A DNA stretch of 64,000 nt from a virus (taxonomy: Duplodnaviria; Caudoviricetes), in the IMG/VR virus record IMGVR_UViG_3300025012_000029, positions 64,001-128,000 of that record; one strand, 5' to 3'. Under the pieces are notes generated by a model. That model worked only from the letters and a program-made list of their open reading frames with translations, had not been told where the DNA came from and did not search any database. Numbering within the stretch: the first letter of the stretch is position 1; every line of letters begins with the position of its first letter. Made by a program: the position numbers and the translations under genes. Below are positions 26,428 to 35,013 of this stretch, one piece after another.

Positions 26428-26826
26428 TTAAGAAAAAGTCCTGACTGCGATGATAAAATCTTCTTTATTCACTTGTCCAGTGGCATCCCCAATCGTTCCA
26501 CCGTATTCATATATAAATGTTATTTTATCCCCTGAACTAAGCGAAAATGGTGTATTCAGCCATGTAGCGGCAGAACCTGTTACTGTATAATCTGTTGTTA
26601 GATTATACAGAACTCCATTAACATTCATTCTAACATCTGTATTGTCTTGTGGAGTTTGGGTAAGAGTAAATGCTGTTTGTGACGCAGTTGCCGAAAAAAC
26701 ATCAATCTGTTCTGATGGCATTGAGAGAGTTTGCGGTTCCCACATTGCTGAAGAGGAATTATATGTAACAATTTCGTTATGAGTCGCACCATCTTGATGT
26801 AGTTGTTTTAATTTAAGCAAACTCAT
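26428..26826 (-). CDS. Small decoration-like protein
   Basis: QTAFTLTQTP...VRMNVNGV...DYTVTGSAATW module shared with 8220..11531 and 3715..4902. Confidence 0.7.
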   Translation of the reverse strand: MSLLKLKQLHQDGATHNEIVTYNSSSAMWEPQTLSMPSEQIDVFSATASQTAFTLTQTPQDNTDVRMNVNGVLYNLTTDYTVTGSAATWLNTPFSLSSGDKITFIYEYGGTIGDATGQVNKEDFIIAVRTFS

Positions 26827-26877
26827 ATATTGTCCTCTCTATTAAAAAATAAAAAATTTTACATTTAATACTCTCTT

Positions 26878-26885
26878 TAATTAGT
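26878..26885 (-). promoter_or_regulatory. ACTANTTA junction motif
   Basis: ACTAATTA, ~52 nt upstream of ATG 26826. Confidence 0.5.
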
Positions 26886-26912
26886 TATGATATTTCAATT
26901 TGTCAACTCTAA

Positions 26913-29519
26913 TCAAAAAACAACACTAGCAAATCCATCTTTGTTGTCAATAGAAATAATAGAATCTACAGAATCCTTTAATACATCCAAATGAGATATG
27001 AGAATAACACATTTGAATTGAGATTTAATTACATCAAGCATACGAATAAATCCAGCCATATTGTCTTCATCTAGTGAAGTTCCTGGTTCGTCGAGAATGA
27101 ATATATCAGACTTTGGAAGCGACGATATATTGATGAATGCTAATCGAATTGCCATTGAAGCAATACATTTTTGAGCACCTGAACCCATTTCGATCGGAAG
27201 CGGCTCATTATCGTTAGGTTTTTTCATGTAGATTTCTAATCTATTATCTTCATTTTCAAAATAAACTTGAAACTCCACTATGTTTGAAAGAATTTTGGAT
27301 ATTTCATCATTAATGTTTGGCAAACTCTTCTTGATGATGTCATAAGAAATACCGCTAGGGTGCATACATTTCATAAACAAATCATATGCTTCATAATCGC
27401 TGCGCATCTTATTTAATTCTTCTTTTTCTTGAGATAATTTCTCTATTTTTTGTTCAATGAATCCGGCATTTTTATACATGTCCTTCAATTTGTTTTCACA
27501 TGATACAAAATTAGACTTATAATCCTTTAAATCTTTTTCTTTGCTTTTTCTTTCGTTTAACAAGCTTTCTATTTTATCTATCTTTTCTTTATTTTCTTTA
27601 TACTTTTGTTCTCTAGCTAAAAGATTGAAAATTTCCATTTCAACTACTTTTAAAAGCTGCAACTTAATTTCAACTTGCGGCTTTAAATTTTTTATCTCGC
27701 GAACAAACATTATCTTTTTTTCAAGAAGTAGATTATATTTTGAAATTTGTTCCTCTACTTTGGCAGTATCTAATTTCTTAATTTTATCTTGAACATCATT
27801 TTTTTCTTGCTGCTTTTTTTCAATAAGAATTTTAATAATATTAATTTGTTCTTTAGCTTCGTATGCGCCACGAATGAATTTACAATGTGAATACTCAGAA
27901 CCACATGGAACCTCTTTCAAAATAGAAACCTTTTTCAAATCATGGTCCATATCTTTTTGACTATTATCAATTTCTTTTAAAAGCAACTCTAATGCGCTTT
28001 CATGATTTGAAATTATTTCTTGTTTATCTTTCAAAGATTGAATATCAAAATTTTCAATAAATTCATCAACTCTTTTGAGTTTAGATTCACTTTCAACAAT
28101 TTTATTCTCTATCTCTAAAATTGAGTTTTTAATATTTTGAGATTCATCGTTTTTCTTTTTTAGAGAACTACGGACTACATCGATGTCAATTAGTTCATCC
28201 GGAGAAGACTCAATAATTTGAGTCAAAACAATAATTTCTTTATCAAAAATAGAAATCTTATTTCCTAAATCAGAACAAGCAATTTCACATTCGGCAATTG
28301 AATTTTTGTTTTGAACTAATTGAATTTCTGCTTGAGAAATTTCATTATCAAAATTCTTTCCCTCCAATTTCTTAATTACGGATTTAATATCAGCAGATTC
28401 TTTATTAGCTAATTCAAACTTTTCCGAAAAGAAATCTACATCAAGAAATTTAGCAAGAATTTCTTTTCTTTCTGTTGAACCTTTATCAATATAAGTTAGC
28501 GCACCAAGTTGTGAAGACATTGATGTCAGCAAGAAATCATCAAATGAACCAAAATATTTAGTTATATTCTTATCGGTTTCAATTCTATCAATGCCGTTGA
28601 GAGATTCAATTTCTCCTGTCTTCATATCCTCAACTGAAAAATCGAGATATGTTTTAGCTTCAATTGTTTCCGAGCCATGAAGTTTTTTCACATATTTTTC
28701 TGAATCTCTTTTAATAAGGAATTTCTTATTTCCAGAACGCAACGTTGCCCTTCCTGATCCAGCATTACAATCTTTATTGATTATTTTTGTCTTCTTGCGA
28801 GAGTTCTTTGTAATAGAATTAAATAAAGTATAGAGAAAACTATCTACAATGCTTGATTTTCCAGAAAAATTCTTTCCAAACACTCCTATAGTTCCACTCA
28901 AATGATTAAAATCAATCTTATTACCAGAACCATAATTAAATAAATTATCCCACTCAAAATTCAAAACTTGATAATCAACATTTCTAATCGACGATTGTTT
29001 GGATTCTGCTAACAAATTTAACTTCTTGTTAATATCAAATAATTTTTCATAAAGACATTCATCAATATGATAATCTTTGAGATATTCTCTAATCAATTTT
29101 TCTTGGACGTTGACATTTCTTAAATCTTCTTTTTTTAATATTCCATCAATAGAAACAAAAGAATTTTTGTTATCTGCTTTATTTAAAAATGTAACACTAT
29201 CTGGGTTGAACTTTGTCTTTACTACATCAATAGATTTACGAATCGTATCAATGGGTAAATTAGTTTCAGAAATAACACGTAAACGAGCGCCAATAGGAAT
29301 GTCAATATTGGGATTTAAAGAACCGTCTGGTTCCAACACTATTGAAATAAATGGATTAGGATTTGGAATAGAAATGTGTTTAACTGTAAATGTTGTTTTA
29401 TCTTGAATGTCCCAAATTAAGAAACCTTTACTATTTTCCTCACCATGGTTCTGCTGAATTAATGAACCGGACCAGCGCACTTCGGGTGTTTTACGAAATA
29501 TCTTTATTTTTTTACTCAT
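26913..29519 (-). CDS. sbcC: Fusion of the SbcD/Mre11 C-terminal half to an SbcC/Rad50 (gp46-like) ATPase
   Basis: N-terminus WSGSLIQQNHGE...KGFLIWD (SbcD motif V region); then GKNFSGKSS Walker A, coiled coil, MGSGAQK signature, FILDEPG Walker B, LISH. Confidence 0.9.
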   Translation of the reverse strand: MSKKIKIFRKTPEVRWSGSLIQQNHGEENSKGFLIWDIQDKTTFTVKHISIPNPNPFISIVLEPDGSLNPNIDIPIGARLRVISETNLPIDTIRKSIDVVKTKFNPDSVTFLNKADNKNSFVSIDGILKKEDLRNVNVQEKLIREYLKDYHIDECLYEKLFDINKKLNLLAESKQSSIRNVDYQVLNFEWDNLFNYGSGNKIDFNHLSGTIGVFGKNFSGKSSIVDSFLYTLFNSITKNSRKKTKIINKDCNAGSGRATLRSGNKKFLIKRDSEKYVKKLHGSETIEAKTYLDFSVEDMKTGEIESLNGIDRIETDKNITKYFGSFDDFLLTSMSSQLGALTYIDKGSTERKEILAKFLDVDFFSEKFELANKESADIKSVIKKLEGKNFDNEISQAEIQLVQNKNSIAECEIACSDLGNKISIFDKEIIVLTQIIESSPDELIDIDVVRSSLKKKNDESQNIKNSILEIENKIVESESKLKRVDEFIENFDIQSLKDKQEIISNHESALELLLKEIDNSQKDMDHDLKKVSILKEVPCGSEYSHCKFIRGAYEAKEQINIIKILIEKKQQEKNDVQDKIKKLDTAKVEEQISKYNLLLEKKIMFVREIKNLKPQVEIKLQLLKVVEMEIFNLLAREQKYKENKEKIDKIESLLNERKSKEKDLKDYKSNFVSCENKLKDMYKNAGFIEQKIEKLSQEKEELNKMRSDYEAYDLFMKCMHPSGISYDIIKKSLPNINDEISKILSNIVEFQVYFENEDNRLEIYMKKPNDNEPLPIEMGSGAQKCIASMAIRLAFINISSLPKSDIFILDEPGTSLDEDNMAGFIRMLDVIKSQFKCVILISHLDVLKDSVDSIISIDNKDGFASVVF

Positions 29520-30486
29520 ATTTTTTTATACATTCTAAAAATGATTGTTCAAAATCATTTTTTAATATTTCAGTTTCCCAAAATCTTAATAAGATAAATC
29601 CACCCTTTTGTGCTAAATTATTTTTAAAAACATCATTTTCAGCATTTTTACGTTGAATATCGTTTAATATAAAGAATATATCAGGATTGGCATGCCAATA
29701 ATCTCCATCACATTCTAATAGAATTTTTTTATTAATGAAAAAATCATAAACCTTAAATTTATGACTATCATAATAAACTCTAAATGACTTTGAATAAACA
29801 ACATTATTCTTAATAAGAATATTTTCCAAAATATTTTCAATTTTAGTTGATTTTGTTCTAAACAACTCTTTTTGTCCTATTTCCCAAGAATAATTCCCAT
29901 ATCGTTCTAAACAGGTTATCTCGCATTTTTCTCTTATTTCTTCATTTTGCCAATTATGTTCAACTCCATATCTCCTAAATAAAGTTTGTTTTCTTTTTTG
30001 AATTGAAGCAGGATCCCAACCTGGTGAGTATTCATTATTTTCCTTATATTTTTGTATTCCTTTTTTAATTTTTTCTACATATTCGGCATCTTTCCACGCT
30101 TCTTTCATTATTATAGAATGCCAATCTCTTTCTTCTTTTGGAGCTTTTCTTCCATAAACAGGACTTCCTTTTCCAGAATATAATATTTTTTGATGCTCAT
30201 CCTTACATTTTCTTGAACAATATCTATTCTTTTTTGTTTTTCTTATTCTAAAAATATAACCACATAAAATACACTTCCTATTTTCTCTTTCTATTTTCTC
30301 AATTCCTCTAATATTTTCATGTTGACATTTTTCGCTACAAAAAACTTCATTTTTGGTTTTTATTCCACATATTTTACAAATATTTTTTGGCTCTTTTATA
30401 TAACCAATATTTCTACATTTCAACGAACAATAAGTTTTGTAATTCGTGTCTACTCCGCATATACGACATTTTATCATTTCATTCAC
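29512..30486 (-). CDS. Free-standing Vsr/DUF559-like putative homing endonuclease with Zn-ribbon repeats
   Basis: Three CxxC...YCSxKC repeats; C-terminal YDF...LLECDGDYWH...LLRFWETEI. Confidence 0.8.
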   Translation of the reverse strand: MNEMIKCRICGVDTNYKTYCSLKCRNIGYIKEPKNICKICGIKTKNEVFCSEKCQHENIRGIEKIERENRKCILCGYIFRIRKTKKNRYCSRKCKDEHQKILYSGKGSPVYGRKAPKEERDWHSIIMKEAWKDAEYVEKIKKGIQKYKENNEYSPGWDPASIQKRKQTLFRRYGVEHNWQNEEIREKCEITCLERYGNYSWEIGQKELFRTKSTKIENILENILIKNNVVYSKSFRVYYDSHKFKVYDFFINKKILLECDGDYWHANPDIFFILNDIQRKNAENDVFKNNLAQKGGFILLRFWETEILKNDFEQSFLECIKKYE

Positions 30487-30522
30487 CTTATTTTTCTCGC
30501 AAAACTATGGAGAACTATAAGA

Positions 30523-30530
30523 TAAATAGT
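30523..30530 (-). promoter_or_regulatory. ACTANTTA junction motif upstream of the inserted endonuclease
   Basis: ACTATTTA in the 49-nt gap after the SbcD N-half stop. Confidence 0.5.
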
Positions 30531-30535
30531 CATTA

Positions 30536-31189
30536 TTACACAATTTCCCATCCATTTTTCAAATATATTTCAATTTCTTTTTCATCTATTTCTATTTCTT
30601 CATAGTTTTGTTCTGATATTTGTTGATTCGACTTGTGGATGTCGCCCAACATCACATAGTCCATCTTTTTGAATATAGAAACATCATCATCGGCATTTTC
30701 CATAGTCCAACCAATATCTGTCTCACAACCACTAATTGAACCATGATAAAGAGCAATATTAATATTGTTTTCATTTGTAGGATCTATCCAATTATCTCTA
30801 TCAAAAACATTCATTACGTTTAATGTAGTGTTGTCATTAAAAGGATATTCGCCAGATTTTAAGAACAGCTCTAAATTTGGATGATTAATTGCGTTAACAA
30901 CTGGAGAAACAGCATCTAATCTATTATTATTTTTATATACTTTGTCGTGATTTCCAAGAATCAATTTAGTGGGAGCAATATTAGCCAAATTTCTGAGAAA
31001 ATCTGATGCCATTTGGACATACTCTGGTGAGATATTACACTTAGTGTGAGCCAAATCCCCACAAAATACTATCAAATCTGGTTTTTCATCTCTTAAGATA
31101 GAATACAATTTTTCAAATATATAAATGTATTCTTCGTGACGAATTGTATTTCGCAGATGCAAATCACTCAAATGGATAATTTTAACCAT
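30536..31189 (-). CDS. sbcD: SbcD/Mre11 (gp47-like) metallophosphoesterase, N-terminal half
   Basis: HLSDLHL, FCGDLAH, LGNHD, LYHG, MLGDIHK; lacks the following YSGS motif, which is in 26913..29519. Confidence 0.9.
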   Translation of the reverse strand: MVKIIHLSDLHLRNTIRHEEYIYIFEKLYSILRDEKPDLIVFCGDLAHTKCNISPEYVQMASDFLRNLANIAPTKLILGNHDKVYKNNNRLDAVSPVVNAINHPNLELFLKSGEYPFNDNTTLNVMNVFDRDNWIDPTNENNINIALYHGSISGCETDIGWTMENADDDVSIFKKMDYVMLGDIHKSNQQISEQNYEEIEIDEKEIEIYLKNGWEIV

Positions 31190-31533
31190 TACTTTTTTCT
31201 TTCTAAAGTTCGTCTTTCTCGCAATTCCCTATCTGCTCCACATTTTTTACAACAATCAAATTTATCTGAACAGGAATCACACAACGTTGGCACCGAACGA
31301 CCATATCCTTTATGTAATTCTCCACACCCCCGGCAAGTCCACTCAAATTTACTATCCACTCCCATTCCTGTGCCCCAAATATAATAACAAGCTAAACATT
31401 TGCGAACTTTAATTCTATCGTCCTTCTTTGGATCAAGTTTATAATTTTCTAATGCTTTTATTCTTCTTTCAACATCTTCTTGAGCAACGGAAGTTTGAAA
31501 TCGAAGTTGATACAAATCAAATTTTTTTGTCAT
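31189..31533 (-). CDS. Cys-rich putative zinc-binding protein
   Basis: CLAC, CRGC, CDSC, CCKKC; stop overlaps the SbcD start (TAATG). Confidence 0.7.
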   Translation of the reverse strand: MTKKFDLYQLRFQTSVAQEDVERRIKALENYKLDPKKDDRIKVRKCLACYYIWGTGMGVDSKFEWTCRGCGELHKGYGRSVPTLCDSCSDKFDCCKKCGADRELRERRTLERKK

Positions 31534-31539
31534 ATAAAC

Positions 31540-32463
31540 CTACTCACTTAGTGAATTAATGAGATACTCTAAATCATTATCACTATTAATCTTTAAGGCA
31601 TTTTTCTTTCTTTCGTTGAATTCTTCTTTAAGCATGCTGCCAACGTCCTTAAATAACTTAACATTTATTTTCCAAACTTCTACACCATATGATGCCAAAA
31701 GTAGCATTATTTGTTTTTCTTTTTCTTTGGCATCTGGATCTAAAGCTACAAAAACTTTTGGACAATTAGACACAATTTTCTGAAAAACATATGAATCTTC
31801 GCGCAAAGTTGAACCCAATAAAGGAATTGCGTTTCTTGCCACAATGGCATCAAAGACGCCCTCTACTATTGTAATTGGAGCATCCCAACTTATAAATAAT
31901 TCATTAAAAATAATATCTTTACTCGAAGGCGGATTCAAATATGGAACTTGATGTTCGAGATATGTTCTAGCGACAAAATAATTCACATTTCCATTCATAT
32001 CAAATGATGGAACAATAATCCTGTTTTTATATTTGCCTTCAAGACAAACTCCCATTTTCCACCACAAAACATCATTAAAGGATAATCCTCTATTGTAGAG
32101 ATATTGGCGAGCATGAATAGTTGCCGGGTGTGGCTTTTTTGAAGTTAGAGTGATAAATTCTTTAGGCAATTTAACTTTTTCTTCAACAAAATTATCTTTG
32201 TCCACAATATCAGAAAAATCTACTTTTTCCTCAAATTCGCTCCACGCATTAATTTGTTGTTGATTTCCAAAAGAACGAACGGCAGAAAAAATTGATTTAC
32301 CGGAATAGTTGCAGATCCAGCATTTGAAACAATTCTTGCTCAAAGAAAATGAGAGTTTTTTTTTATGATGTTTACATTTGCTACATGTAAAAAGATATTC
32401 GCCACCAGAACAATAATAAGTTCCAAATATTTCCTCAAGAATTTGAAGTTTCTTCTCAAGCAC
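31540..32463 (-). CDS. dnaG: DNA primase (Zn finger plus TOPRIM)
   Basis: CSKC...FKCWIC, YLYNRG, RIIVP, IVEGVFDAI, ALDPDA, KDVG. Confidence 0.9.
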   Translation of the reverse strand: MLEKKLQILEEIFGTYYCSGGEYLFTCSKCKHHKKKLSFSLSKNCFKCWICNYSGKSIFSAVRSFGNQQQINAWSEFEEKVDFSDIVDKDNFVEEKVKLPKEFITLTSKKPHPATIHARQYLYNRGLSFNDVLWWKMGVCLEGKYKNRIIVPSFDMNGNVNYFVARTYLEHQVPYLNPPSSKDIIFNELFISWDAPITIVEGVFDAIVARNAIPLLGSTLREDSYVFQKIVSNCPKVFVALDPDAKEKEKQIMLLLASYGVEVWKINVKLFKDVGSMLKEEFNERKKNALKINSDNDLEYLINSLSE

Positions 32464-33859: not shown

Positions 33860-34996
33860 TTACGTATCTATTTTCATTTTTATACTAAATGAGTCCGTCT
33901 CTCTTTTTCTTATCGGCGAGGCCAATTTAGCAATTGCTATTAAATTTCTATCACGATCATATATTCCAACACGAGACAAATATGTGACATTATCAAAACT
34001 TCCGGTAGGCTCTATAAAATTACTTTTCACAATATTTTTTATTTCTATTTTATCACTTTCTCTATATTGCGTTGAACTAGAATGTGGAGTAATAGATCCT
34101 GTTTGTCCATGTTTGAGAAATGTTGGATTATTTGAAAAATTCAATTGCCCTTTTTGTGCGTGAGCAAACATAGTAATAACTGGAGTAAAAGTAGTTCCTT
34201 CAAAATCAATTTCAAAACTCGACGAAGCCACGTTCGTAAGATCGGCAGGAGTTGCTGAACCCGTTGTTCCAAAAAAAGTCCATCTAGGAGATTTAGAAAC
34301 TGGATCATGTATATCATAGCGTTCCTGATGCGATGGATGAATTGTCCAGCTTCCAGTTAAAGAAATAAATCCTTCTCTGTATAGAACAACACCAGCAACG
34401 CTGCCACTATTAGAATCTTGTGGTAGTTTCTGTCTCAATTCTCCATTGCCCTTATCGTCTGTAAGTTCTGCAGCAAGAGTTCCAGTTACATAAAATTTAC
34501 ACGACACACTTCCTTTTCTAATTGAAGAACCATAAAATATAGATGGAACACCGATCAACGTAATCTCTTGAGAGCTTTTATTCCCCAAAGATGATTCATA
34601 TGTAAAGTGTTTACTAAGAGTTTTATTATTGAAAATATTTCTGAGGGCATCAATATGAGACCGAACAACACCAGCAACATATCTATCAATTGAAATGCCA
34701 GCAGCTAATGGATAAGATCCTGTTACAATATCGCCATAAGAAAAATCAGAATTGAATTCAGAAGTGCTAACAGTTTTAAAAGATGTCAATGACCCGTCTT
34801 TTGTAATAAATGGATAGGTGTTTCCTGCTCCAGGAATTGGATGTAGAAATTCATGTATATCAATTTGTCCATTTGGAACAGTAACGGGCAATTGGTTGTT
34901 ATAGTAAATTTGCCCATCATAAATTTTGAAGTTTATGTTTGGATGGGCTTTAATTTGATTATAAAATATATCGTTTTTACCAAATTTGTGGTACAT
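33860..34996 (-). CDS. Virion structural (tail/baseplate region) protein
   Basis: C-terminal VGIYDRDRNLIAIAKLASPIRK shared with 35298..36386. Confidence 0.7.
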   Translation of the reverse strand: MYHKFGKNDIFYNQIKAHPNINFKIYDGQIYYNNQLPVTVPNGQIDIHEFLHPIPGAGNTYPFITKDGSLTSFKTVSTSEFNSDFSYGDIVTGSYPLAAGISIDRYVAGVVRSHIDALRNIFNNKTLSKHFTYESSLGNKSSQEITLIGVPSIFYGSSIRKGSVSCKFYVTGTLAAELTDDKGNGELRQKLPQDSNSGSVAGVVLYREGFISLTGSWTIHPSHQERYDIHDPVSKSPRWTFFGTTGSATPADLTNVASSSFEIDFEGTTFTPVITMFAHAQKGQLNFSNNPTFLKHGQTGSITPHSSSTQYRESDKIEIKNIVKSNFIEPTGSFDNVTYLSRVGIYDRDRNLIAIAKLASPIRKRETDSFSIKMKIDT

Positions 34997-35005
34997 TACT
35001 GGTAA

Positions 35006-35013
35006 TAAATAGT
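35006..35013 (-). promoter_or_regulatory. ACTANTTA junction motif
   Basis: ACTATTTA ~10 nt before ATG 34996, no SD. Confidence 0.5.

What the first reader, a model, noticed from the sequence alone, without database searches (positions are those of the whole stretch)
26913..31189. SbcD/Mre11 nuclease gene fractured by an endonuclease, with a candidate split 'clasp' domain at the break
Seen: the phosphoesterase is cut between motif IV (GDIHK, in 30536..31189) and the WSGSLIQQNHGE motif (start of 26913..29519, fused to SbcC), with a Vsr-like endonuclease gene in between. There is no intein (no Cys/Ser...HN junctions). There is no room for an intron core: a 49-nt gap on one side and an 8-nt overlap on the other. 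The N-half ends in an extra 26-aa tail SEQNYEEIEIDEKEIEIYLKNGWEIV (9 acidic, 2 basic; 30539-30616). The C-half begins MSKKIKIFRKT (5 basic, 0 acidic). Established: phage genes split by homing endonucleases exist (Aeh1 nrdA by mobE; split-intein 'fractured' loci with Vsr-like endonucleases). Inference: tail plus head read like one small beta-alpha-beta-beta domain (strand, helix, GWEIV, ..., IFRK; DUF4177-like spacing) whose last strand comes from the other chain. That would be a non-covalent, charge-complementary clasp that rebuilds an active site from two polypeptides without splicing.
Basis: partly seen in the sequence, partly recalled or inferred. Interest (0 to 1): 0.82.

Follow-up and report, generated by a model that had tools for sequence, protein, structure and literature searches.

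The report
Endonuclease-split phage SbcD gene with clasp
A selfish endonuclease gene has cut a groundwater phage's DNA-repair nuclease (a fused Mre11-Rad50) into two separately made proteins, and their extra acidic and basic ends are predicted to be the two pieces of one small conserved fold that probably holds the halves together; one locus of this type was noted in 2009, so this is a well-supported new example, not a new kind of thing.

Summary
On the minus strand lie an SbcD N-half (217 aa, phosphoesterase motifs I-V), a 324-aa free-standing endonuclease gene (Zn ribbons, DUF7487, Vsr/DUF559-like core) and a C-half (868 aa: last nuclease strands, capping domain, Rad50-like ATPase). Unsplit relatives read GDIHKTNQIL-DKEG-RIRYCGS, so the break lies in the turn of a beta-hairpin.

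The 26-aa acidic tail and 11-aa basic head are conserved in at least 30 split loci. Those loci carry three different nuclease domains at the same break. Two loci have lost the endonuclease but keep the split, the tail and the head.

Seven unsplit proteins carry tail and head as one contiguous insert. AlphaFold2 folds that insert, and a read-through of an endonuclease-less split locus, as strand-helix-strand-loop-strand (pLDDT 83-97). The gene break falls in the loop.

Insert-bearing genes do not form one clade (AU p = 2e-7). The window's nearest relatives are unsplit and lack the insert.

No intein or intron was found. Assembly of the two halves is inferred, not shown.

Dassa et al. 2009 described one such SbcD-like locus (25 + 9 extra residues). 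Crona et al. 2011 showed that such tails are essential in split Aeh1 NrdA. This scan has noted the same arrangement in another genome.

The parts
30536..31189 (-). SbcD/Mre11 N-half, 217 aa, with phosphoesterase motifs I-V (D9xH, G44D, G79NHD, H149, G182DIH); ends in a double stop TAA TAA
   Evidence: ORF; Pfam Metallophos 2.3e-15 and phrog_100; motif positions; stop codons read
30539..30616 (-). Acidic 26-aa tail (net charge -7). Predicted strand b, helix and strand c of the split mini-domain; consensus YEEIEVDExELxxYLxNGWEIV
   Evidence: Absent from unsplit relatives; conserved in at least 30 split N-halves; fold from AlphaFold2 models of homologues
30487..30535 (-). 49-nt spacer with the promoter-like motif ACTATTTAT (30522-30530) and an SD-like GGTGA ahead of ATG 30477
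   Evidence: Sequence. The motif occurs 6 times in the window, always on the minus strand. Near-identical forms (CTATTTA / TATTTAC) lie in the spacers of L014, L015, L019 and L022
29512..30486 (-). Free-standing homing-endonuclease-like gene, 324 aa: N-terminal Zn-ribbon repeats (CxxC...YCSxxC), DUF7487 middle domain, Vsr/DUF559-like nuclease core
   Evidence: Homologous ORFs lie at the same break in L014, L015, L019, L021, L022 and L023, and a TnsA-like one in L002
29512..29519 (-). 8-nt overlap ATGAGTAA between the endonuclease stop and the C-half start. The C-half has no SD of its own, so translational coupling is likely
29487..29519 (-). Basic 11-aa head MSKKIKIFRKT (net charge +5); predicted strand d of the mini-domain
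   Evidence: Absent from unsplit relatives; conserved pattern M-x-KK-[IY]-K-[IV]-[RK]-KK in 10 loci; AlphaFold2 models
26913..29519 (-). C-half, 868 aa: last nuclease-core strands (EVRWSGSLIQQNHGE), capping domain, then Rad50/SbcC-like ATPase (Walker A at 215, hook-like CGSEYSHC at 539, signature SGAQK at 780, Walker B at 806, H-loop at 841)
   Evidence: Collinear with unsplit fusions of about 1050 aa

Best explanation
The host gene is a single-chain Mre11-Rad50 (SbcD-SbcC) fusion of about 1050 aa, common in aquatic tailed phages. In this phage a free-standing homing-endonuclease gene sits in the tip of the beta-hairpin that follows phosphoesterase motif V. The nuclease is therefore made as two polypeptides: N (217 aa) and C (868 aa, probably translationally coupled to the endonuclease ORF).

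The endonuclease is flanked by 26 codons on one side and 11 on the other that the unsplit relatives lack. Together these encode a small strand-helix-strand | strand module that lengthens the native hairpin. The acidic strand of the tail and the basic strand of the head most likely pair side by side, and the helix and the GWEIV strand cap them. The gene break lies in the loop before the last strand.

The two chains would therefore reassemble without splicing, by complementation of the phosphoesterase sandwich strengthened by this split mini-domain.

The unit tail-(endonuclease)-head behaves as a mobile polymorphism. It is scattered over the host-gene tree, it occurs with three different nuclease domains, it persists after endonuclease loss, and it also occurs fused in frame as a domain insertion.

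Shown: the anatomy, the conservation, the distribution and the predicted fold of the contiguous form. Inferred: strand pairing across chains, assembly, activity and homing.
For: Anatomy and break point relative to unsplit relatives.

Conserved tail in at least 30 split N-halves, and conserved head in 10 loci. Tails have net charge -3 to -11 and heads +2 to +7 in all 10 pairs.

The tail is about as conserved as the catalytic core, and its identity is decoupled from core identity. The window's tail is 62-71% identical to tails whose cores are 36-56% identical to the window's core. For the one of those loci whose endonuclease was compared (L023) the endonucleases are 35% identical.

Split loci without an endonuclease keep the tail and head: L017/L018 (stop, 9 nt, ATG, in frame) and L020 (overlapping ORFs).

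Seven unsplit proteins hold the contiguous insert.

AlphaFold2: the L017 read-through gives E208-215, H216-224, E228-230, E237-244 with block pLDDT 91-97. Natural unsplit P0237 gives E199-206, H207-215, E219-221, E230-237 with pLDDT 83-94. The L017 read-through model matches solved Mre11/SbcD structures.

All catalytic and ATPase motifs are intact in the window.

The insert-bearing set is not monophyletic: 22 state changes on 182 tips, and the AU test rejects one clade with p = 2.25e-7. The window's nearest relatives are unsplit and lack the insert: P0004 at 70% on the N core, P0116 at 67% on the C part.

Experimental precedent that insertion-derived, oppositely charged tails are essential for a split phage enzyme: Crona et al. 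2011, PMC3045599.
Against: No two-chain prediction or experiment was possible. Both models are single chains, one of them with an artificial G-EKN link. I could not read coordinates, so tail-head strand pairing is deduced from topology and equal strand lengths, not from measured contacts.

The window's own pair was not folded; transfer rests on 50% tail identity to L017 without gaps.

In Aeh1 NrdA the tails were not needed for heterodimer formation but for a higher-order assembly step, so 'clasp' may be the wrong job description.

The insert exists in unsplit genes, so it may have another role and simply offer a permissive loop.

No RNA data exist for this phage: only groundwater DNA runs hold it.

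The tree rests on about 190 columns and a quick search.
Confidence: 0.7

Rival explanations
1. The mini-domain is an ordinary lineage-specific insertion of the hairpin, with a job of its own such as DNA or partner binding. It existed in unsplit genes before any endonuclease arrived. The endonuclease merely homes into its exposed loop. The halves would reassemble through the large phosphoesterase-sandwich interface whether or not the tail and head are present.
For: Seven unsplit proteins carry the contiguous insert. Hairpin length varies continuously from 16 to 57 residues across the family, with intermediates at 24-31 residues in the second clade. In Aeh1 the tails were dispensable for heterodimer formation.
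Against: In the window's own clade the native hairpin is 18-19 residues. The insert is present in all 16 split tips of the clade, and none of the clade's unsplit tips in the tree carries the long insert. Opposite charges on the two sides hold in all 10 pairs. The unsplit-with-insert forms could equally be re-fused split genes, because L017 is one stop codon away from such a fusion.
Confidence: 0.2
2. The two halves are a dead pseudogene pair left by a destructive endonuclease insertion.
For: No expression or activity data exist for this phage.
Against: Both ORFs are intact with every catalytic and ATPase motif. The same two-piece layout is kept in dozens of diverged phages at 35-60% identity, including ones that have lost the endonuclease. 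The added peptides are under clear constraint.
Confidence: 0.04
3. The halves are rejoined by RNA splicing, protein splicing or translational bypassing.
For: Phage genes interrupted by endonuclease ORFs are often introns or inteins. No RNA data are available to exclude a joined transcript.
Against: No intron family in Rfam at E<=1 over 26500-31600. The endonuclease ORF fills all but 49 nt of the gap and overlaps the C-half, so no room is left for a ribozyme core. No Hint/intein domain, no junction Cys/Ser/Thr or HN, and only 37 extra residues. The gap is about 1 kb, against about 50 nt for known bypassing. The N-half ends in two stop codons.
Confidence: 0.03

Closest known systems
'SbcD-like' intein-less fractured gene from Lake Gatun GOS data (Dassa et al. 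2009, Nucleic Acids Res 37:2560, PMC2677866)
   Same: N- and C-halves of an SbcD-like exonuclease separated by a Vsr-like putative homing endonuclease. No split intein. The endonuclease 3' end overlaps the downstream half. 25 extra C-terminal and 9 extra N-terminal residues lie next to the break.
   Different: That paper had one locus and proposed no role or fold for the extra residues. Here the arrangement is a large family (at least 30 loci) with a conserved tail/head consensus, three nuclease types, endonuclease-less and re-fused forms, and a predicted split mini-domain. Whether the Lake Gatun sequence belongs to the same consensus could not be checked, because its supplement is not held.
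Aeromonas phage Aeh1 nrdA-a / mobE / nrdA-b (Friedrich et al. 2007, cited from memory; Crona et al. 2011, Nucleic Acids Res 39:1381, PMC3045599)
   Same: A free-standing endonuclease splits an enzyme gene. The two halves carry insertion-derived, oppositely charged tails. There is no RNA or protein splicing. The tails were shown to be essential for activity.
   Different: Different host enzyme and an HNH endonuclease. Charge polarity is reversed there (basic on the upstream half, acidic on the downstream half). The tails are unique to one phage, with no known fold, and act in dimerisation of heterodimers rather than in joining the halves. Here the peptides form a conserved, predicted-folded module that is also found contiguous in unsplit genes.
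Split-intein 'fractured genes' with GIY-YIG or Vsr-like endonucleases (Dassa et al. 2009)
   Same: Same locus architecture and the same endonuclease family. The association of the two fragments is proposed to be driven by electrostatics between paired beta-strands.
   Different: No Hint fold and no splicing residues, and the extra peptides stay in the product. This locus is a functional analogue of the association step only.
Phage T4 gene 39 / mobA / gene 60 topoisomerase split (as discussed in Crona et al. 2011)
   Same: An enzyme subunit split by an endonuclease cassette, with charged tail-like extensions on both products.
   Different: Different enzyme. T4 gene 60 in addition uses a 50-nt translational bypass. 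The role of the tails is untested.

Membership tests
Intein-less gene in pieces made by a free-standing homing endonuclease | The host coding region is interrupted relative to collinear unsplit homologues | tested here: met
   Unsplit fusions of about 1050 aa in IMG/VR, Mel-JY01, LR756501 and metagenomes read straight through the break
Intein-less gene in pieces made by a free-standing homing endonuclease | An endonuclease ORF with its own start and stop lies between the halves | tested here: met
   324-aa ORF at 29512-30486; DUF7487, weak DUF559, phrog_3339; homologues at the same break
Intein-less gene in pieces made by a free-standing homing endonuclease | No intron or intein that could rejoin the halves | tested here: met
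   No Rfam intron; no Hint domain or junction residues
Intein-less gene in pieces made by a free-standing homing endonuclease | The two products assemble into an active enzyme | not testable with these tools
   Only indirect evidence: intact motifs, family-wide retention, predicted fold of the contiguous form
Intein-less gene in pieces made by a free-standing homing endonuclease | The endonuclease cuts endonuclease-less alleles and spreads by homing | tested here: inconclusive
   Patchy, non-monophyletic distribution and mosaic nearest relatives fit mobility. Cleavage itself is untested
Split intein (fractured gene with trans-splicing) | Hint fold of about 100 + 35 aa, with N-terminal Cys/Ser and C-terminal HN followed by Cys/Ser/Thr | tested here: not met
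   The extra peptides are 26 + 11 aa. The tail starts with S-E-Q after NQQI. The head ends ...RKT-P with no HN. No Pfam intein domain
Vsr-like homing endonucleases (Dassa 2009) / Pfam Vsr, DUF559 | Vsr-type catalytic core (Asp, Glu-x-Asp-Gly, His motifs) behind a separate DNA-binding region | tested here: met
   The window ORF scores DUF559 16.4 bits, below the 20.6 cut-off, so it is weak on its own. It is 42% identical over 306 aa to the L021 ORF, which passes Pfam Vsr at 30.2 bits. The motifs YDF...LLECDGDYWH...RFWE are read
Mre11/SbcD nuclease | Five calcineurin-like phosphoesterase motifs and the nuclease plus capping-domain fold | tested here: met
   Motifs, invariant columns. The model of the L017 read-through, a homologue of the window's protein, matches Pfu Mre11 and E. 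coli SbcD at Foldseek E of about 1e-12
   No Pfam hit at E<=10 for four contiguous inserts; no Atlas look-alike. Only a likeness in secondary-structure order remains

The most novel reading that the evidence does not exclude
The unit tail-endonuclease-head is a self-contained mobile cassette that carries its own 'antidote': the two halves of a small foldable domain that re-zips the invaded enzyme without splicing. That would make it a protein-level analogue of a split intein's association step. The cassette can swap its nuclease domain (Vsr-like, HNH-like, TnsA-like). After the endonuclease is lost it leaves first a two-gene enzyme and then, by loss of one stop codon, a permanent domain insertion in the host protein. 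That would be a route by which selfish DNA creates both gene fission and new domain insertions.
Probability: 0.4. Interest if true: 0.65.

Novelty: new member of a known kind. Interest (0 to 1): 0.5.

Why it matters
Free-standing homing endonucleases that land inside essential or useful genes should be harmful, yet they persist. The only tested answer so far is one phage, Aeh1 NrdA, where insertion-derived tails rescue the split enzyme.

The SbcD case offers a natural series:
- unsplit genes without the insert
- genes split with an endonuclease of three catalytic types
- genes split without an endonuclease
- unsplit genes with the contiguous insert

It also offers a short, conserved, predicted-folded module. 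That makes the 'mobile element brings its own repair kit' idea directly testable by deletion, charge swap and transplantation. It may also yield a compact natural heterodimerising tag of about 26 + 11 aa.

The series further documents how gene fission and domain insertion can both come from one selfish element. The Mre11-Rad50 single-chain fusion that hosts it is itself little described.

Tried and rejected
(1) Alignments for folding. MAFFT put the tails of N-half rows onto the QQNxGE region when many full-length unsplit rows were present (A1, A4). It piled C-part rows onto the N-terminal region when unsplit proteins were cut in two (A2, A3). These were discarded. The folds used A5 and A6, which hold only full-length-type rows.

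(2) The window's own two chains could not be folded together, because the tool takes one chain and only unmodified sequences. As proxies I used the in-frame read-through of the endonuclease-less locus L017 (TAA read as G) and the natural unsplit P0237.

(4) Pfam and the ESM Atlas gave nothing for the isolated insert. The DUF4177 link was dropped.

(5) Recent horizontal transfer as the reason for tail similarity was rejected. The window and L023 share a 67% identical tail, but their endonucleases are only 35% identical and the DNA differs at many synonymous sites. Constraint explains the similarity better.

(6) Rfam found no intron, and the scan found no intrinsic terminator inside the locus.

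(7) No second copy of the endonuclease is in the window.

(8) Sequencing runs: only groundwater DNA assemblies hold the stretch and none is RNA.

(9) Supplementary Figure S2 of Dassa et al. is not held.

(10) The literature searches for DUF7487 and for split Mre11 genes in phage found nothing beyond Dassa 2009 and Crona 2011.

Full report
WHAT IS THERE. On the minus strand of the window, one search lists in order:
- a DnaG-like primase (31540-32463)
- a small Cys-rich ORF (31189-31533)
- a 217-aa ORF (30536-31189)
- a 324-aa ORF (29512-30486)
- an 868-aa ORF (26913-29519)

Pfam and PHROGs make the first of the last three a calcineurin-like phosphoesterase of the SbcD type. The last is an SbcC/Rad50-like ATPase preceded by about 190 residues of something else. 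The middle one is a homing-endonuclease-like protein (DUF7487, weak DUF559/Vsr-like, phrog_3339).

Motifs I-V of the phosphoesterase all lie in the N-half. The Rad50 motifs are intact in the C-half. GDIH is motif V, not IV.

THE HOST GENE AND THE BREAK POINT. Relatives found by tblastn and by pattern scans carry one uninterrupted gene of about 1050 aa in the same neighbourhood (resolvase, primase, nuclease). These are Microcystis phage Mel-JY01, the huge phage LR756501, ten IMG/VR contigs and over 3000 metagenomic proteins. The host gene is therefore a natural Mre11-Rad50 fusion.

Across the break these relatives read GDIHKTNQIL-DKEG-RIRYCGS...QQNHGE. The window reads GDIHKSNQQI + 26 residues + stop, and then Met + 10 residues + P-EVRWSGSLIQQNHGE. 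The interruption thus replaces the 4-6 residue turn of a beta-hairpin, and 37 residues are extra.

IT IS A FAMILY, NOT AN ACCIDENT. A search with the N-half returned about 30 stand-alone N-halves of 217-244 aa. They are 37-57% identical to the window's N-half. All end in the same tail, with consensus YEEIEVDExELxxYLxNGWEIV(EE).

Ten loci were read in context. Their C-halves start with a conserved basic head, M-x-KK-[IY]-K-[IV]-[RK]-KK-x-P. Tails carry net charge -3 to -11 and heads +2 to +7 in every pair.

The ORF between the halves shares Zn-ribbon and DUF7487 regions but has different catalytic ends:
- Vsr-like in the window, L021, L022 and L023
- a weak HNH-like end in L014, L015 and L019 (phrog_6050 6e-5, Pfam HNH 0.05)
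- TnsA-like in the huge phage LR756508

Two loci have no endonuclease at all yet keep the split, the tail and the head. In L017/L018 a TAA stop is followed by 9 nt and the ATG, in frame. In L020 the two ORFs overlap.

THE INSERT ALSO EXISTS UNSPLIT. An exhaustive HMMER search used the L017 junction region read through its stop. It found seven full-length proteins of 1083-1189 aa in which tail-like and head-like segments are contiguous, joined by a loop of 3-9 residues. An example is P0237...NIEFEVPMDDLKTYTENGFTII-PNDELKND-VYKVLKKTP.... Most family members have 16-19 residues between GDIH and the GS of the next strand. One clade shows intermediates of 22-31 residues.

PREDICTED FOLD. AlphaFold2 was run on alignments of 103 full-length-type rows (A5, A6).

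For the L017 read-through (425 aa, mean pLDDT 92) the insert is strand 208-215, helix 216-224, strand 228-230, a loop that holds the break, and strand 237-244. It lies between the native hairpin strands 202-205 and 246-249, with block pLDDT 91-97.

Natural unsplit P0237 gives the same order (199-206, 207-215, 219-221, 230-237) at pLDDT 83-94.

The L017 read-through model matches solved Mre11 and SbcD structures.

The two 8-residue strands continue the two arms of the native hairpin. I therefore infer that they pair antiparallel, acidic against basic. I could not read coordinates, so this step is inference. The window's tail aligns to L017's without gaps at 50% identity.

MOBILITY. A tree was built from the N-terminal core only, leaving out the insert columns. 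On it, 37 insert-bearing tips among 182 need 22 changes of state (shuffled labels: mean 34, minimum 30). An AU test rejects holding them in one clade (delta lnL 1167, p = 2.25e-7).

In the window's own clade the native hairpin is 18-19 residues. There are 16 split tips, most of them lying singly among unsplit ones, and none of the clade's unsplit tips in the tree carries the insert.

The window's nearest relatives are unsplit and differ for the two halves. P0004 is 70% identical on the N core. P0116 is 67% identical on the C part but only 58% on the N core. The best split relative is 60% and 51%.

Tail identity does not track core identity. The window's tail is 67% identical to that of L023, whose core is 40% and whose endonuclease is 35% identical to the window's. 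This argues for constraint on the tail rather than recent transfer.

Whether the mini-domain first arose in an unsplit gene and was later split, or travels with the endonuclease, is not settled. For the window's clade the data favour arrival as a unit.

ALTERNATIVES. No intron family was found. No Hint domain or splicing residues are present. There is no terminator inside the locus.

A promoter-like motif ACTATTTAT in the spacer recurs six times in the window, always on the coding strand. Near-identical forms (CTATTTA / TATTTAC) lie in the same spacer of four other loci. [quoted passage not shown]

A pseudogene reading is hard to hold against the family-wide retention of both halves.

The stretch is held only by groundwater DNA metagenomes, and no RNA run holds it.

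WHAT WAS KNOWN. Dassa et al. 2009 (PMC2677866) reported one Lake Gatun locus. It had SbcD-like halves, a Vsr-like ORF, no intein, 25 + 9 extra residues and an overlapping downstream start. They proposed no function for the extra residues.

Crona et al. 2011 (PMC3045599) showed that the oppositely charged tails created by the mobE insertion are essential for split Aeh1 NrdA. They predicted that similar tails would be found in other fractured genes. In their case the tails act in dimerisation, not in joining the halves.

Earlier notes of this scan describe the same SbcD arrangement in another genome, and comparable cassettes in N4-like DNA polymerases.

VERDICT. The locus is a new member of a known kind.

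- the family-wide consensus of the tail and head
- the three nuclease types at one site
- the endonuclease-less and re-fused forms
- the predicted split mini-domain

Assembly and the need for the peptides remain to be tested.

Noticed in passing
window 26913-31189 and loci L001, L003-L012: The host gene is a single-chain Mre11-Rad50 (SbcD-SbcC) fusion of about 1050 aa, with over 3000 metagenomic relatives at E<=1e-10. The endonuclease split restores a two-subunit enzyme, but at a point about 190 residues upstream of the canonical SbcD|SbcC boundary.
   Followed up: partly
window 6739, 14051, 23653, 30522, 35005, 37355 (all minus strand): The motif ACTATTTAY occurs 6 times against 2.1 expected, always on the coding strand. 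At least one copy lies just upstream of a gene start (35005-35013, before the ORF starting at 34996). It is a likely phage promoter element and is also present in the spacer ahead of the endonuclease.
   Followed up: partly
window 31189-31533 (-): A 114-aa Cys-rich ORF (phrog_15241, unknown function) sits between the primase and the SbcD N-half, and its stop overlaps the N-half start. Related loci have a different small ORF there (119 aa in L014; 52-aa DUF7336 in L019) or none.
   Followed up: no
window 26913-29519, C-half residue 539: The Rad50-like coiled-coil apex reads CGSEYSHC (C-x6-C) where L017 has a canonical CxxC (CVFC). It may be a variant zinc hook.
   Followed up: no
L008 2447-3403; L001 626-1138; L017 3600-4022: The primase-nuclease neighbourhood is a hot spot for other selfish genes: an extra 318-aa ORF between primase and nuclease in one IMG/VR relative, and GIY-YIG / SegE-like ORFs next to the primase in Mel-JY01 and L017.
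   Followed up: no
window N-half versus C-half: The two halves have different nearest relatives (P0004 for the N core; P0116 for the C part, whose own N core is only 58% identical). This suggests recombination at or near the break.
   Followed up: partly
L020 5668-5705: In this endonuclease-less split locus the N-half stop and the probable C-half start overlap in different frames (ATGAAGTATTATAA). This looks like a compact translationally coupled pair left after endonuclease loss.
   Followed up: partly
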